Below are positions 35,156-36,771 of a stretch of DNA of 42,235 nt, one piece after another. The stretch's first letter is position 1; the number at the start of each line of letters is the position of its first letter. The DNA comes from a virus. Position numbers and translations under genes: made by a program. The notes under the pieces were generated by a model. The model was not told the DNA's origin. It saw nothing but the letters and a program-made list of their open reading frames with translations, and searched no databases. The stretch lies in UHGV virus genome UHGV-1993760. One strand, 5' to 3'.

Positions 35156-35245
35156 GCAAATGTTCTTGGATGTTACTGGCTTACTTCTCTGTGAAGTTGC
35201 CTTTACCAACGTTGAGCGAGCCGGGTCACTACCCGGCTTTTTTTC
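35156..35245 (+). ncRNA. candidate OOP-like antisense small RNA (promoter plus terminator on the strand opposite to the early-right operon)
   Basis: Plus-strand -35 TTGAAA (35119-35124), 18-bp spacer, -10 TATTTT (35143-35148); plus-strand hairpin ccgggt-cact-acccgg (35221-35236) followed by T7 (35238-35244) overlapping the stop of the Rha-like gene. Confidence 0.3.
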
Positions 35246-35951
35246 ACCGCTGCCAACCAATAACCTGAAATAACCCCATTTTCGGGTGATACCAGCGAGT
35301 CCCTCGCGGTTCTGCTTCCTCCATAACCCGATAAAAAGCAGCCATAAACGGTTCCACAGCAACAATTGCGCGACGTGACAACAATCCGTCCGGCGTCATG
35401 AACTCATGGGTGTCTGTAGGAATTTGATAGGCGTTCACCAGATTGCGGCATTTATCATCTGACAAACCGGTTTTCGCTTTCAGTTGGCGATATCCGGCAT
35501 AGCCCTCACGAATGGTGCCCTTTTTGATTTGCTCAACTGTTTCGGCAACGTGGCTGACTTTTTCTTCCACCTGAGTGATCCGTTTCTGCTGGCGAACGGC
35601 TTCAAGAGCCATCGCAGCAACCATTTCGATTTCGCTCATTGGCTTACGGATCTGCTCTTCCAGTTCGCGCCAGCGATCTACCAGGCGGGCTGTGAATTCG
35701 GGACAAAGCTGTGCGACGACAATGATGCTGTCGCGTTTGCCTCGTTCACCTTCGAAAAGATAATGCTTACTTTTTTGAGTTAAACCTAACCCATTGATAT
35801 TTTCAGAAATCCCCATTGGGGGAAGCTGAATAATCCTTCGTTCAGCAAGGCGCTCAATGGATTGTTTCACTTTGTCATGGCGGCTGCCCACCAGCTCTGC
35901 GATTTCAACGCTGGTCATGGATGCTTTGCCGTTAAAAATTGTTGTATTCAC
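35244..35951 (-). CDS. Rha-family phage regulatory protein (possible antirepressor), in the cII position
   Basis: GTG start with GGAGA 6 nt upstream; N-terminus ...MTSVEIAELVGSRHDKVKQSIERL... resembles the Rha N-terminal domain as recalled. Confidence 0.5.
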   Translation of the reverse strand: MNTTIFNGKASMTSVEIAELVGSRHDKVKQSIERLAERRIIQLPPMGISENINGLGLTQKSKHYLFEGERGKRDSIIVVAQLCPEFTARLVDRWRELEEQIRKPMSEIEMVAAMALEAVRQQKRITQVEEKVSHVAETVEQIKKGTIREGYAGYRQLKAKTGLSDDKCRNLVNAYQIPTDTHEFMTPDGLLSRRAIVAVEPFMAAFYRVMEEAEPRGTRWYHPKMGLFQVIGWQR

Positions 35952-36205
35952 TGTTTATCTCCTTCGCACACTCCATCTTCTGTGTGCGCTAAGCTTGGGT
36001 GTGCTCCACGCTTGTTTTTGCGCGAGCGGTTCTTGTACAGGTTCAGATCGCACTTCAGAGCTCCATCAGTTAGTTTCTCAAGCTCCAGAGCTGCGCCTTT
36101 AGGAATGAGTTCTGGCCATTGAGAAACAGCTTGCTCGCTAATCCCCAGTGATTGAGCAATCGCTCTTTGCGAACCATAAAACTTAATTGCACTAATCTTT
36201 ATCAT
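35948..36205 (-). CDS. cro: Cro-like HTH repressor
   Basis: 85 aa; ...GSQRAIAQSLGISEQAVSQW... is a Cro/CI-type HTH; divergent from the CI-like gene across an 80-bp palindrome-containing region. Confidence 0.65.
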   Translation of the reverse strand: MIKISAIKFYGSQRAIAQSLGISEQAVSQWPELIPKGAALELEKLTDGALKCDLNLYKNRSRKNKRGAHPSLAHTEDGVCEGDKQ

Positions 36206-36218
36206 TGAGACCTCAACA

Positions 36219-36278
36219 TTAATTGATTAAGCTTAGCGACAGGACCTACAACACAATCCTACTATCAAGTATACTTGA
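36219..36278. promoter_or_regulatory. candidate operator region between cro and the CI-like gene
   Basis: Inverted repeat TTAATtgATTAA (36219-36230) and perfect 14-bp palindrome TCAAGTATACTTGA (36265-36278). Confidence 0.4.
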
Positions 36279-36285
36279 GGGCAAT

Positions 36286-36771
36286 ATGAACACAAAACTA
36301 AAGTCATGTCAGTCTTCTCCACTCTCAATGGGGCACAGGATTCTGTCACGCAGAAAAGAACTTGGTTTAAGTCAATTAAAGCTGGCACAAGCAATGGGGG
36401 TATCAATGGCTGCTGTATCTTTATGGGAGAAAGGAAAGACAAGCATAACTAGCGATAAGTTATTGAAATTATCAGAACTATTACAGTGCGACGTACAGTG
36501 GCTTTTAAATGGAAACACAGAAAAACCTAAGTACACACTTACCCGGGAGAATGGAGAAACTCTTTTTGATTCAATGAGCAACAAACTGATACGAGGTATT
36601 ATTGAATCTATAGATCCAACAATCATTGAGGATACAAGCTATTTATTTGAAATATTTGCGAATTTACCCACAAAAGAGAGGGTAAAGGTGTTGGATTTTG
36701 CAAAAAATCTTCTGGAAGAACACTCAAAAAACATCTTGCTAATCACGCAAAAACTCAATCAAAAAGACTAA
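36286..36771 (+). CDS. CI-like prophage repressor, XRE-family HTH, without a recognisable S24 autocleavage domain
   Basis: ATG at 36286 with GAGGG upstream (track start 36223 is TTG inside the operator region); HTH ...LSQLKLAQAMGVSMAAVSLWEKGK...; C-terminal 80 aa show no LexA-like Ser/Lys pattern. Confidence 0.55.
   Translation: MNTKLKSCQSSPLSMGHRILSRRKELGLSQLKLAQAMGVSMAAVSLWEKGKTSITSDKLLKLSELLQCDVQWLLNGNTEKPKYTLTRENGETLFDSMSNKLIRGIIESIDPTIIEDTSYLFEIFANLPTKERVKVLDFAKNLLEEHSKNILLITQKLNQKD

What the first reader, a model, noticed from the sequence alone, without database searches (positions are those of the whole stretch)
35244..36771. Immunity region with a non-cleavable-looking CI-like repressor and a Rha-like protein in the cII position
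The CI-like protein has an N-terminal XRE HTH but its C-terminal domain lacks an obvious LexA/S24 pattern, so induction may depend on an antirepressor rather than RecA-mediated cleavage. The Rha-like gene downstream of cro, or the HTH protein at 36840, is a candidate. Two distinct palindromes (TTAATtgATTAA and TCAAGTATACTTGA) in the 80-bp cro-cI gap suggest operators.
Basis: partly seen in the sequence, partly recalled or inferred. Interest (0 to 1): 0.45.

Follow-up and report, generated by a model that had tools for sequence, protein, structure and literature searches.

The report
Short non-cleavable repressor immunity cassette
This is the lysis/lysogeny switch of a phiP27-like E. coli prophage in which the usual self-cleaving repressor has been swapped for a rare short repressor that cannot cut itself, a known type of arrangement (Gifsy/DicA-like), so it is a new member of a known kind and not a new mechanism.

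Summary
A 161-aa CI-like protein (36286-36771, +) has a P22 C2/434-type HTH and no S24 peptidase. Its C-terminus is a predicted two-helix hairpin behind a disordered linker. It faces a P22_Cro-type cro (35948-36205, -), which is followed by a Rha-domain gene (35244-35951, -).

The two "distinct" palindromes are better read as one operator class. TCAA-N6-TTGA occurs exactly three times in 42 kb, and all three copies flank cI. A fourth site with one mismatch lies at the cI stop codon. A Salmonella relative has the same operators.

Comparison with phiP27 and PhiR49_2 shows the unique DNA is a swapped cassette at 35965-37063. It holds cro, OR, cI, OL and the N-terminal half of the next HTH gene.

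The Rha-like gene lies outside this cassette. It is about 89% identical in phiP27, whose repressor is a full-length 218-aa CI, and siblings annotated with LexA-family (S24) repressors carry a Rha-family gene in the same slot. It overlaps the cro stop codon, so it is made only after derepression and is a poor induction trigger.

No LexA box and no Rem, GftA or DinI homologue is present, with a Gifsy-1 positive control. A P1-immI-like isrK/C4 RNA module gates a second Rha-domain ORF just downstream. That ORF is the better cis candidate for an antirepressor.

Short non-cleavable repressors countered by antirepressors are already established (Lemire 2011).

The parts
36286..36771 (+). CI-like immunity repressor, 161 aa. 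HTH at residues 14-77, disordered linker about 81-103, C-terminal two-helix hairpin 111-160. No S24 domain.
   Evidence: Pfam HTH_3 5.4e-15 and no S24. PDB P22 C2 2.9e-11. AF2 with a 13-sequence alignment, pLDDT 76.9. Foldseek best match P22 c2, 43% identity. hhalign against the phiP27 218-aa CI (L11) aligns only the HTH.
35948..36205 (-). cro, 85 aa, divergent from cI
   Evidence: P22_Cro 1.6e-16 and YdaS_toxin 1.3e-10. phrog_409.
36265..36278 (.). Operator OR-a, TCAAGTATACTTGA, a perfect 14-bp palindrome. It contains TATACT in both orientations, which are possible -10 elements of pR and pRM.
   Evidence: The same class occurs in Salmonella locus L006. The promoter assignment is inference.
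36213..36226 (.). Operator OR-b, TCAACATTAATTGA.
36786..36799 (.). Operator OL-a, TCAATTATAGTTGA, in the spacer of a pL-like promoter (TTGACT-17-AATCAT, 36779-36807)
36769..36782 (.). Operator OL-b, TAAATTATACTTGA, one mismatch. It overlaps the cI stop codon and the -35 of the pL-like promoter.
35965..37063 (.). Exchangeable immunity cassette, unique DNA relative to phiP27 and PhiR49_2. It contains cro, OR, cI, OL and codons 1-75 of the next gene. GC falls to 32-36%.
   Evidence: blastn boundaries. GC profile. The exact cassette is in 2 of 5426 complete E. coli genomes.
35244..35951 (-). Rha/Roi-like gene, 235 aa, in the cII position. Its GTG start overlaps the cro stop (GTGA) and it has its own SD, AAGGAG. 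It is a backbone gene, not part of the cassette.
   Evidence: Phage_pRha 1.1e-7. phrog_63 1e-46. Annotated Roi, Ant or DNA-binding protein in relatives. Outside the cassette.
36840..37271 (+). First gene of the pL-like operon, 143 aa (phiP27 L10 family). The N-terminal ~75 aa vary with immunity type. The C-terminal XRE HTH is conserved.
   Evidence: HTH_3 3.5e-11. phrog_4836 and phrog_4739. Alignment A3. Junction at 37064.
34998..35074 (-). isrK-like RNA element carrying the a1/b1 target copies (TTGGCGT 35049-35043, GTTATCGG 35033-35026) and an intrinsic terminator
   Evidence: Rfam isrK 62.7 bits (gathering score 50). c4-a1b1 weak hit. Complementarity.
34886..34973 (-). C4-type antisense RNA
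   Evidence: Rfam C4 82 bits (gathering score 45).
34469..34881 (-). a2/b2 target copies (TTGGCGT 34881-34875, GTTATCGGA 34850-34842, the latter overlapping SD GGAGG), then a 120-aa Rha-domain ORF (ATG 34831, stop 34469). This is the best cis-encoded antirepressor candidate.
   Evidence: Complementarity to C4 loops. Phage_pRha 31.0 bits against cut-off 29.9. phrog_995.

Best explanation
The region is the immunity switch of a phiP27-like lambdoid prophage integrated next to yecN/cmoA. Its cI-cro cassette has been replaced by horizontal exchange with a rare cassette that encodes a short, non-self-cleaving repressor.

Shown: the 161-aa protein has a P22 C2/434-like HTH, a disordered linker and a C-terminal helical hairpin, and no S24 peptidase. 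Four 14-bp TCAA-N6-TTGA sites flank its gene, two between cro and cI and two at a pL-like promoter. The cassette boundaries are 35965 and 37063.

Inferred: the repressor dimerises through the C-terminal hairpin and binds these operators. This shuts the rightward operon (cro, Rha-like gene, replication genes, Q) and the leftward operon (143-aa HTH gene through int). Cro competes for the same sites.

Because the repressor has no protease domain and no Ala-Gly site, RecA cannot induce it directly. Derepression most likely needs a protein that binds and disables it, an antirepressor, as for Gifsy GfoR/GtgR and DicA.

The prophage carries no LexA box and no GftA- or Rem-type gene. The antagonist is therefore either a trans-acting antirepressor from another prophage (about 0.25) or the Rha-domain ORF at 34469-34831 (about 0.25). 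That ORF has its own isrK promoter region, and a C4 antisense RNA can occlude its ribosome-binding site, as in P1 immI.

The 235-aa Rha-like gene next to cro is a conserved early backbone gene made only after derepression. It is not the trigger.
For: No S24 domain: Pfam; AF2 model with helical C-terminus; hhalign to phiP27 L11 aligns only the HTH.

Repressor role: the gene is divergent from a P22_Cro gene. Relatives P0162 and P0155 occupy the same slot in Salmonella lambdoid prophages.

Operators: 3 of 3 exact TCAA-N6-TTGA sites lie in the two gaps flanking cI, with a fourth one-mismatch site. The same motif is in OR and OL of L006, whose repressor has the same recognition-helix sequence VSMAAVSLWEKG.

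Cassette: blastn boundaries, GC trough, and presence in 2 of 5426 genomes while the flanks are in 335.

The two-domain architecture matches repressors controlled by partner proteins: SinR/SinI 1b0n, an arbitrium repressor with its antirepressor 9iaq, and DdrO 6jq1.

Precedent: PMC3121763 and PMC10448788.

No SOS input: the LexA matrix scan gave a best score of 15.1, inside an ORF and within the shuffle range. The same sites scored 24.3 on the Gifsy-1 dinI box as a positive control. There are no Rem, GftA or DinI homologues.

C4 module: Rfam; a1/b1 and a2/b2 copies, with b2 over the SD.
Against: No binding, dimerisation or induction experiment exists. The promoter assignments are consensus matches only.

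The C-terminal similarity to known antirepressor-sensitive repressors is weak: GtgR E 0.0066 and DicA E 0.69 in a 248-protein set.

The AF2 model rests on 13 sequences, and the domain orientation is unreliable.

The C4-gated ORF is not homologous to Gifsy-1 AnrP. No Rha-domain-only protein is shown here to bind a repressor. The same C4/Rha module also sits in phiP27, so it is not specific to this cassette.

The host genome outside the window was not searched for trans-acting antirepressors.
Confidence: 0.7

Rival explanations
1. One reading: the 235-aa Rha-like protein after cro, or the 143-aa HTH protein after cI, is the antirepressor that induces the prophage.
For: PHROG families matching the Rha-like protein are labelled 'anti-repressor Ant' (phrog_63 1e-46), and phiP27 L14 is annotated Ant. 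The N-terminal half of the 143-aa protein travels with the immunity cassette, which a CI-specific partner might do.
Against: Both genes sit behind the repressor's own operators, so they are off in a lysogen. The Rha start overlaps the cro stop, and OL sites cover the pL-like promoter. The Rha-like gene is outside the cassette and 88.6% identical in phiP27, which has a full-length 218-aa CI, and annotated LexA-family (S24) repressors sit beside a Rha-family gene in siblings. It is absent after cro in relative L006. It has no ANT, KilA-N or Bro-N domain. The 143-aa protein has a conserved DNA-binding HTH and no detectable similarity to CI. Family labels are annotations, not tests.
Confidence: 0.12
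2. The cis-encoded antagonist is the C4/IsrK-gated Rha-domain ORF (34469-34831). Stress-raised IsrK-type RNA titrates C4, frees the ribosome-binding site, and the protein inactivates the repressor. This would be an SOS-independent induction route.
For: The full P1-immI-like RNA architecture is present, with b2 over the SD. There is an independent promoter-like site upstream of isrK, TTGATT-17-TACACT (read). In Gifsy-1, IsrK activates translation of the downstream antirepressor-like AnrP and raises antQ mRNA (PMC4825925). In P1 the C4-gated cargo is the antirepressor Ant (textbook knowledge).
Against: The cargo here is not homologous to AnrP or to P1 Ant. It is a bare Rha (DNA-binding-type) domain. 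The module is equally present in phiP27, which has a full-length CI. No operator links it to the switch.
Confidence: 0.25
3. Induction depends on a trans-acting, LexA-controlled small antirepressor encoded by another prophage in the host, as with Gifsy-2 GtgR and Fels-1 FsoA.
For: Cross-acting antirepressors are documented (PMC3121763). Qin Rem acts on DicA from 3.6 kb away (PMC10448788). This prophage itself has no LexA box or Gifsy-type antirepressor.
Against: No candidate was identified, because the rest of the host genome was not available to search. The weak C-terminal similarity to GtgR and DicA makes cross-recognition uncertain.
Confidence: 0.25
4. There is no dedicated inducer. The switch flips only stochastically through CI/Cro bistability or host proteolysis, and the prophage is effectively SOS-blind or on its way to becoming cryptic.
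For: DicA/DicC show spontaneous antirepressor-independent switching (PMC10448788). No SOS element is in the window. The 52F4 copy has a pseudogenised replication-initiator gene.
Against: In the window itself the replication, Q, lysis and int/xis genes look intact. Relatives of the repressor sit in apparently complete prophages.
Confidence: 0.18
5. The 161-aa protein is not the immunity repressor but an unrelated XRE regulator, for example an antitoxin or a moron regulator.
For: There are weak Pfam hits to MqsA_antitoxin and YdaS_toxin, below their cut-offs.
Against: Synteny with cro is conserved in three genera. Operators of one class flank the gene and cover both early promoters. The HTH is closest to P22 C2.
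Confidence: 0.03

Closest known systems
Gifsy-1/-2/-3 repressors GfoR, GtgR (GftR), GfhR with LexA-controlled antirepressors GfoA, GftA, GfhA (Lemire et al. 2011, PMC3121763)
   Same: A short (136-160 aa) HTH repressor without an S24 domain or Ala-Gly site, in the cI slot of a lambdoid prophage and divergent from cro. There is a C-terminal 'LF..LP..E[KR]' motif resembling that of GtgR (read; HMM E 0.0066).
   Different: The HTH is P22 C2/434-like, not lambda CI-like. The protein is not GfoR or GtgR: the N-termini differ (primers, sequence). No dinI-antirepressor unit and no LexA box is present.
DicA/DicC of the Qin prophage with antirepressor Rem (PMC10448788)
   Same: HTH 43% identical to DicA (9e-18). 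'dicA' genes of PPompW prophages align over residues 14-145 (32%, 1e-9). One source names the window protein a 'repressor of cell division inhibition protein'. The cro is of the P22_Cro/YdaS type.
   Different: The C-terminal domain is not significantly similar to K-12 DicA. There is no Rem homologue. The host prophage looks complete, not cryptic.
Phage P22 C2 and 434 cI repressors and their operators
   Same: These are the best structural and sequence matches for the DNA-binding domain. The operators are 14 bp with conserved 4-bp outer half-sites, TCAA-N6-TTGA against 434's ACAA-N6-TTGT (the latter from textbook knowledge).
   Different: P22 C2 and 434 cI carry an S24 C-terminal domain and are RecA-cleavable. 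This protein has a helical hairpin instead. Two sites per control region were found, not three.
P1/P7 immI (c4 RNA - icd - ant) and the Gifsy-1 isrK-orf45-anrP module (PMC4825925)
   Same: C4 RNA (82 bits), an isrK/a1b1 element (62.7 bits), and duplicated a/b targets with b2 over the downstream RBS.
   Different: The gated ORF is a 120-aa Rha-domain protein, not Ant/Icd or AnrP. The module lies in the pR operon next to the cII-position gene, not after Q.
SinR/SinI, the arbitrium repressor with its small antirepressor, and ImmR/ImmA or DdrO/IrrE
   Same: XRE HTH plus a helical C-terminal oligomerisation domain. These appear as two-domain Foldseek matches: 1b0n, 9iaq, 6jq1. All are inactivated by a partner protein and not by self-cleavage.
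   Different: The resemblance is of architecture only (rmsd 6-14 A, 17-27% identity). No ImmA-like metalloprotease follows cI: the next gene has no HExxH motif (read) and no peptidase hit.

Membership tests
LexA / lambda CI-type self-cleaving repressors (Peptidase S24) | C-terminal S24 peptidase domain with a Ser-Lys dyad | tested here: not met
   No PF00717 hit at E<=0.01. Only about 55 structured residues follow the linker, predicted as two helices. hhalign against the phiP27 218-aa CI aligns residues 13-81 only.
LexA / lambda CI-type self-cleaving repressors (Peptidase S24) | Ala-Gly or Cys-Gly cleavage site in the inter-domain linker | tested here: not met
   No AG or CG dipeptide anywhere in the 161-aa sequence (read).
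LexA / lambda CI-type self-cleaving repressors (Peptidase S24) | N-terminal HTH DNA-binding domain | tested here: met
   HTH_3 5.4e-15. P22 C2 2.9e-11.
Short non-cleavable lambdoid prophage repressors (Gifsy GfoR/GtgR, DicA, RacR class) | About 135-160 aa, HTH present, no S24 domain, in the cI slot divergent from cro | tested here: met
   Conserved synteny of relatives.
Short non-cleavable lambdoid prophage repressors (Gifsy GfoR/GtgR, DicA, RacR class) | Detectable sequence homology to GfoR, GtgR or DicA over the whole length | tested here: inconclusive
   The HTH is homologous to DicA. PPompW 'dicA' aligns to residue 145. The C-terminal HMM gives GtgR E 0.0066 and DicA E 0.69.
Short non-cleavable lambdoid prophage repressors (Gifsy GfoR/GtgR, DicA, RacR class) | Inactivated by binding of a small antirepressor; not cleaved on induction | not testable with these tools
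   Needs a Western blot after mitomycin C and antirepressor expression. No cis LexA box or GftA/Rem homologue was found.
Rha family (Pfam PF09669 Phage_pRha) | N-terminal Rha domain above the Pfam gathering score | tested here: met
   The 235-aa protein scores 32.8 bits against 29.9. The 120-aa ORF scores 31.0 against 29.9.
P22/P1 Ant-type antirepressors | ANT (PF03374), KilA-N or Bro-N type domains | tested here: not met
   No such hit for the 235-aa protein even at E<=1. The PHROG 'Ant' label is annotation only.
P22/P1 Ant-type antirepressors | Expression independent of the primary repressor (own immI-type control) | tested here: not met
   The GTG start overlaps the cro stop and there is no promoter between them, so the gene lies in the pR operon. 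This is an inference from sequence.
P1 immI / isrK-type C4 antisense RNA module | C4 RNA and isrK/a1b1 element above the Rfam gathering scores | tested here: met
   C4 82 bits against 45, and isrK 62.7 against 50.
P1 immI / isrK-type C4 antisense RNA module | Duplicated targets complementary to the C4 loops, with the downstream copy over the RBS of the gated gene | tested here: met
   TTGGCGT and GTTATCGG(A) lie upstream and downstream, and b2 overlaps GGAGG 8-10 nt before ATG 34831.
P1 immI / isrK-type C4 antisense RNA module | Gated protein homologous to Ant/Icd (P1) or AnrP (Gifsy-1) | tested here: not met
   tblastn of AnrP STM2616 against the window gives no hit at E<=1. The cargo is a Rha-domain protein. 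P1 Ant itself was not compared.
P22_Cro (PF14549) | Pfam domain above the gathering score, gene divergent from the repressor | tested here: met
   60.2 bits against 30.2.

The most novel reading that the evidence does not exclude
The prophage has no SOS input of its own. Its non-cleavable repressor would be switched off by the RNA-gated (C4/IsrK) Rha-domain protein just downstream. That would be a P1-immI-type RNA switch grafted onto a lambdoid CI/Cro switch, giving stress-responsive, RecA-independent induction. A variant of this reading is that the cassette-linked N-terminal domain of the first pL gene is a repressor-specific partner that locks in derepression.
Probability: 0.2. Interest if true: 0.55.

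Novelty: new member of a known kind. Interest (0 to 1): 0.3.

Why it matters
phiP27-like phages include Stx-converting phages that share this integration site, and how such prophages are induced decides toxin and phage release. This cassette shows that a single modular swap can disconnect a phiP27-type prophage from direct RecA sensing. Antibiotics that trigger the SOS response might then not induce it, or might do so only through another prophage. The four defined operators and the small, uncharacterised repressor family (Escherichia, Salmonella, Serratia, Yokenella) give a ready system for testing how short repressors are antagonised. Conceptually this adds an example to an established class and does not open a new one.

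Tried and rejected
- AF2 on the single sequence failed (pLDDT 44). It was replaced by a run on a 13-sequence alignment.
- The word-index homologue search with the single protein found only five proteins (four near-identical or truncated copies and one weak HTH-only match). The family emerged only from the exhaustive HMMER search and a profile search.
The matrix sites were validated on the Gifsy-1 dinI box.
- tblastn of Rem and of GftA-like, DinI, AnrP, GtgR, Gifsy Cro and Gifsy CII against the window gave no meaningful hits.
- A C-terminal-domain HMM against DicA and GtgR gave GtgR marginal and DicA not significant. I therefore do not claim domain homology to DicA.
- TTAAT-N2-ATTAA as a second operator class was rejected.
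- BLASTP of the 143-aa protein's N-terminal domain against CI and against the next ORF found no similarity.
- The PDB sequence search for the Rha-like protein found nothing.
- I checked whether the family equals GfoR using primer-encoded termini. It does not.
- An ImmA-type protease downstream of cI was considered and rejected: there is no peptidase hit and no HExxH motif.
- Promoter calls are 8-9 of 12 consensus matches only, and I do not rely on them.
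Full report
**Context**

The window is a lambdoid prophage that ends exactly at the stop codon of a tyrosine integrase (40922-42235). The stretch 35900-37700 is 100% identical to E. coli 52F4, where the prophage lies next to a DUF72 gene, yecN and cmoA. The backbone is phiP27-like. The replication, Rha and left-operon genes match phiP27 and Stx-phage relatives at 85-97% identity.

**Checking the observation**

- The gene at 36286-36771 (+) encodes 161 aa with an XRE HTH (HTH_3 5.4e-15) and no S24 hit. There is no Ala-Gly or Cys-Gly dipeptide.
- The HTH is closest to P22 C2 and 434 repressor (PDB 1adr 2.9e-11; Foldseek 3jxb at 43% identity and rmsd 0.8 A).
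- The divergent 85-aa gene at 35948-36205 (-) is a P22_Cro family member.
- The next gene at 35244-35951 (-) has a Phage_pRha domain above the Pfam cut-off. Relatives annotate it as Roi, Ant or DNA-binding protein.
- The cro-cI gap is 80 bp and both quoted palindromes are present.

**The C-terminal half of the repressor**

A single-sequence AF2 run was uninformative. An exhaustive HMMER search found a small family of 135-170-aa proteins that match over both halves. A profile search recovered members from Salmonella, Serratia and Yokenella.

With a 13-sequence alignment, AF2 gave pLDDT 76.9:
- a confident HTH (residues 15-75);
- a disordered linker (81-103);
- two long helices (111-126 and 129-160, pLDDT 85-90).

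This is a helical hairpin, not the beta-rich S24 fold. The family profile aligns only through the HTH with the 218-aa CI of phiP27. Two-domain Foldseek matches are to repressors controlled by partner proteins: SinR/SinI, an arbitrium repressor with its small antirepressor, RghR and DdrO. This is an architectural resemblance only.

The conserved C-terminal motif 'LF..LP..E[KR]...L.FA' resembles the C-termini of GtgR and DicA by eye. Statistically the match is marginal for GtgR (E 0.0066) and absent for DicA (E 0.69).

**Operators**

TCAA-N6-TTGA occurs exactly three times in the 42,235-bp window: 36213-36226, 36265-36278 and 36786-36799. All three lie in the 148 bp that flank cI. A fourth site with one mismatch (36769-36782) sits 3 bp from the third and overlaps the cI stop codon.

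As a pattern it has another perfect copy at 27124, so the two palindromes are one operator class.

There is independent support from Salmonella locus L006. Its repressor P0162 shares the recognition-helix sequence VSMAAVSLWEKG, and the locus carries TCAATTATACTTGA between cro and cI and TCAATTAAAGTTGA downstream of cI.

The downstream pair overlaps a pL-like promoter, TTGACT-17-AATCAT. OR-a contains TATACT in both orientations. These promoter readings are inference.

**The cassette**

Against phiP27 and PhiR49_2, homology stops at 35964, the Shine-Dalgarno sequence of the Rha-like gene. It resumes at 37064, inside the 143-aa HTH gene at its domain boundary. GC falls to 32-36% inside this interval, against about 50% outside.

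The flanks occur in 335 of 5426 complete E. coli genomes. The cassette occurs in 2.

In the listed siblings the cI slot is annotated as a LexA-family (S24) protein. In phiP27 it is a full-length 218-aa repressor.

The unit that was exchanged is therefore cro + OR + cI + OL + the first 75 codons of the next gene.

The Rha-like gene is outside the cassette. It is 88.6% identical in phiP27, and siblings with annotated S24 repressors carry a Rha-family gene in the same slot. Its GTG start overlaps the cro stop (GTGA) and is preceded by AAGGAG. It is therefore a pR-operon gene that is silent in a lysogen.

It lacks ANT, KilA-N and Bro-N domains. A relative of the repressor has no Rha gene after cro (L006), although another does (L007).

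The 143-aa gene is behind the OL sites and has a strongly conserved DNA-binding HTH. Neither gene can initiate induction. A feed-forward role after derepression is not excluded.

**Search for an inducing input**

Lemire et al. showed that Gifsy repressors of 136 aa are not cleaved. They are inactivated by small antirepressors encoded next to a dinI homologue behind a LexA box, and similar short repressors are common in E. coli (PMC3121763). DicA is antagonised by Rem (PMC10448788).

A LexA matrix gave a best score of 15.1 in the window. That site is inside an AraC-like ORF and within the range of shuffled sequence. The same sites scored 24.3 on the Gifsy-1 dinI box. Rem, the GftA-like protein and DinI have no homologues in the window.

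The prophage therefore has no recognisable SOS-controlled antirepressor of its own.

Rfam finds an isrK element (34998-35074, 62.7 bits) and a C4 antisense RNA (34886-34973, 82 bits) on the minus strand, just downstream of the Rha-like gene.

The C4 loop sequences ACGCCAA and (U)CCGAUAAC are complementary to duplicated targets:
- upstream: 35049-35043 and 35033-35026;
- downstream: 34881-34875 and 34850-34842.

The downstream copy covers the GGAGG Shine-Dalgarno sequence of a 120-aa Rha-domain ORF (ATG 34831).

This is the P1 immI design. It is also the design of Gifsy-1 isrK-orf45-anrP, where IsrK activates translation of the antirepressor-like AnrP and raises antQ expression (PMC4825925). 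The cargo here is not homologous to AnrP, and the module is shared with phiP27. It is a candidate, not a demonstrated antagonist.

**Verdict**

The region is an ordinary CI/Cro-type switch built with a rare member of the known class of short, non-self-cleaving prophage repressors, installed by cassette exchange in a phiP27-like backbone.

- The operator reading needs merging into one class of four sites.
- The proposed antirepressor candidates are the least likely ones.

The route of induction remains open between a trans-acting antirepressor, the C4-gated Rha-domain ORF, and stochastic switching.

Noticed in passing
window 34465-35131 (-): PGAP's 'ash family protein' and Pfam Phage_ASH (65 bits) correspond to the translation across the isrK and C4 RNA elements. 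The reading frame stays open from 35131 (and from ATG 34972) into the Rha-domain ORF. The protein family may therefore largely reflect conserved RNA genes, or an orf45-like leader fused to its cargo, as the IsrK paper noted for S. dysenteriae.
   Followed up: partly
window 35152-35248 (+): Candidate ~95-nt sRNA between the Rha-like stop codon and isrK. There is a promoter-like site TTGAAA-18-TATTTT with an extended TG (35119-35148), a strong intrinsic terminator (35218-35239 plus a T7 run) reaching the Rha stop codon, and a fold z-score of -3.9. There is no Rfam match. Its position is reminiscent of lambda oop.
   Followed up: partly
window 36840-37271 (+); L005 5575-5991; L001 5996-6544: The first pL gene (phiP27 L10 family) is mosaic exactly at its domain boundary. 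The C-terminal HTH is near-identical across phages, and the N-terminal ~70 aa differ with each immunity type. This may be functional coupling to cI or merely a recombination junction. It is unexplained.
   Followed up: partly
window 37427-37633 (+): A 68-aa ORF (phiP27 L08 family) matches the N-terminal-domain region of the L10-type profile (phrog_4836, 8e-5). By eye it resembles the N-terminus of PhiR49_2 L10. A stand-alone copy of a regulator's non-DNA-binding domain suggests a SinI/SinR-like pairing.
   Followed up: no
window 27432-30290: A defence-like island sits between Q and the lysis genes. It holds a GmrSD_N (DUF262) protein, a HEPN (MAE_28990-type) protein and a C-5 cytosine methyltransferase. 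This region differs from strain 52F4, which has a DUF4236 gene there.
   Followed up: partly
window 25798-26844: Three tRNA genes lie next to an AraC-family regulator gene (26131-26844). The best LexA-like site of the window (26448, score 15.1) lies inside that gene and is probably chance.
   Followed up: no
window 33274-34251 (-) versus L002 5376-6122: The replication-initiator (O-like, phrog_270) gene is intact in the window, but PGAP flags it as a truncated pseudogene in strain 52F4. Coordinates also drift left of about 33.2 kb. The window is therefore not strictly the 52F4 copy.
   Followed up: no
window 36223-36285 (+): An in-frame TTG at 36223, inside operator OR-b, would add 21 residues to the repressor. 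Gifsy-3 GfhR makes an N-terminally extended form during induction (PMC3121763). There is no evidence for such a form here.
   Followed up: no
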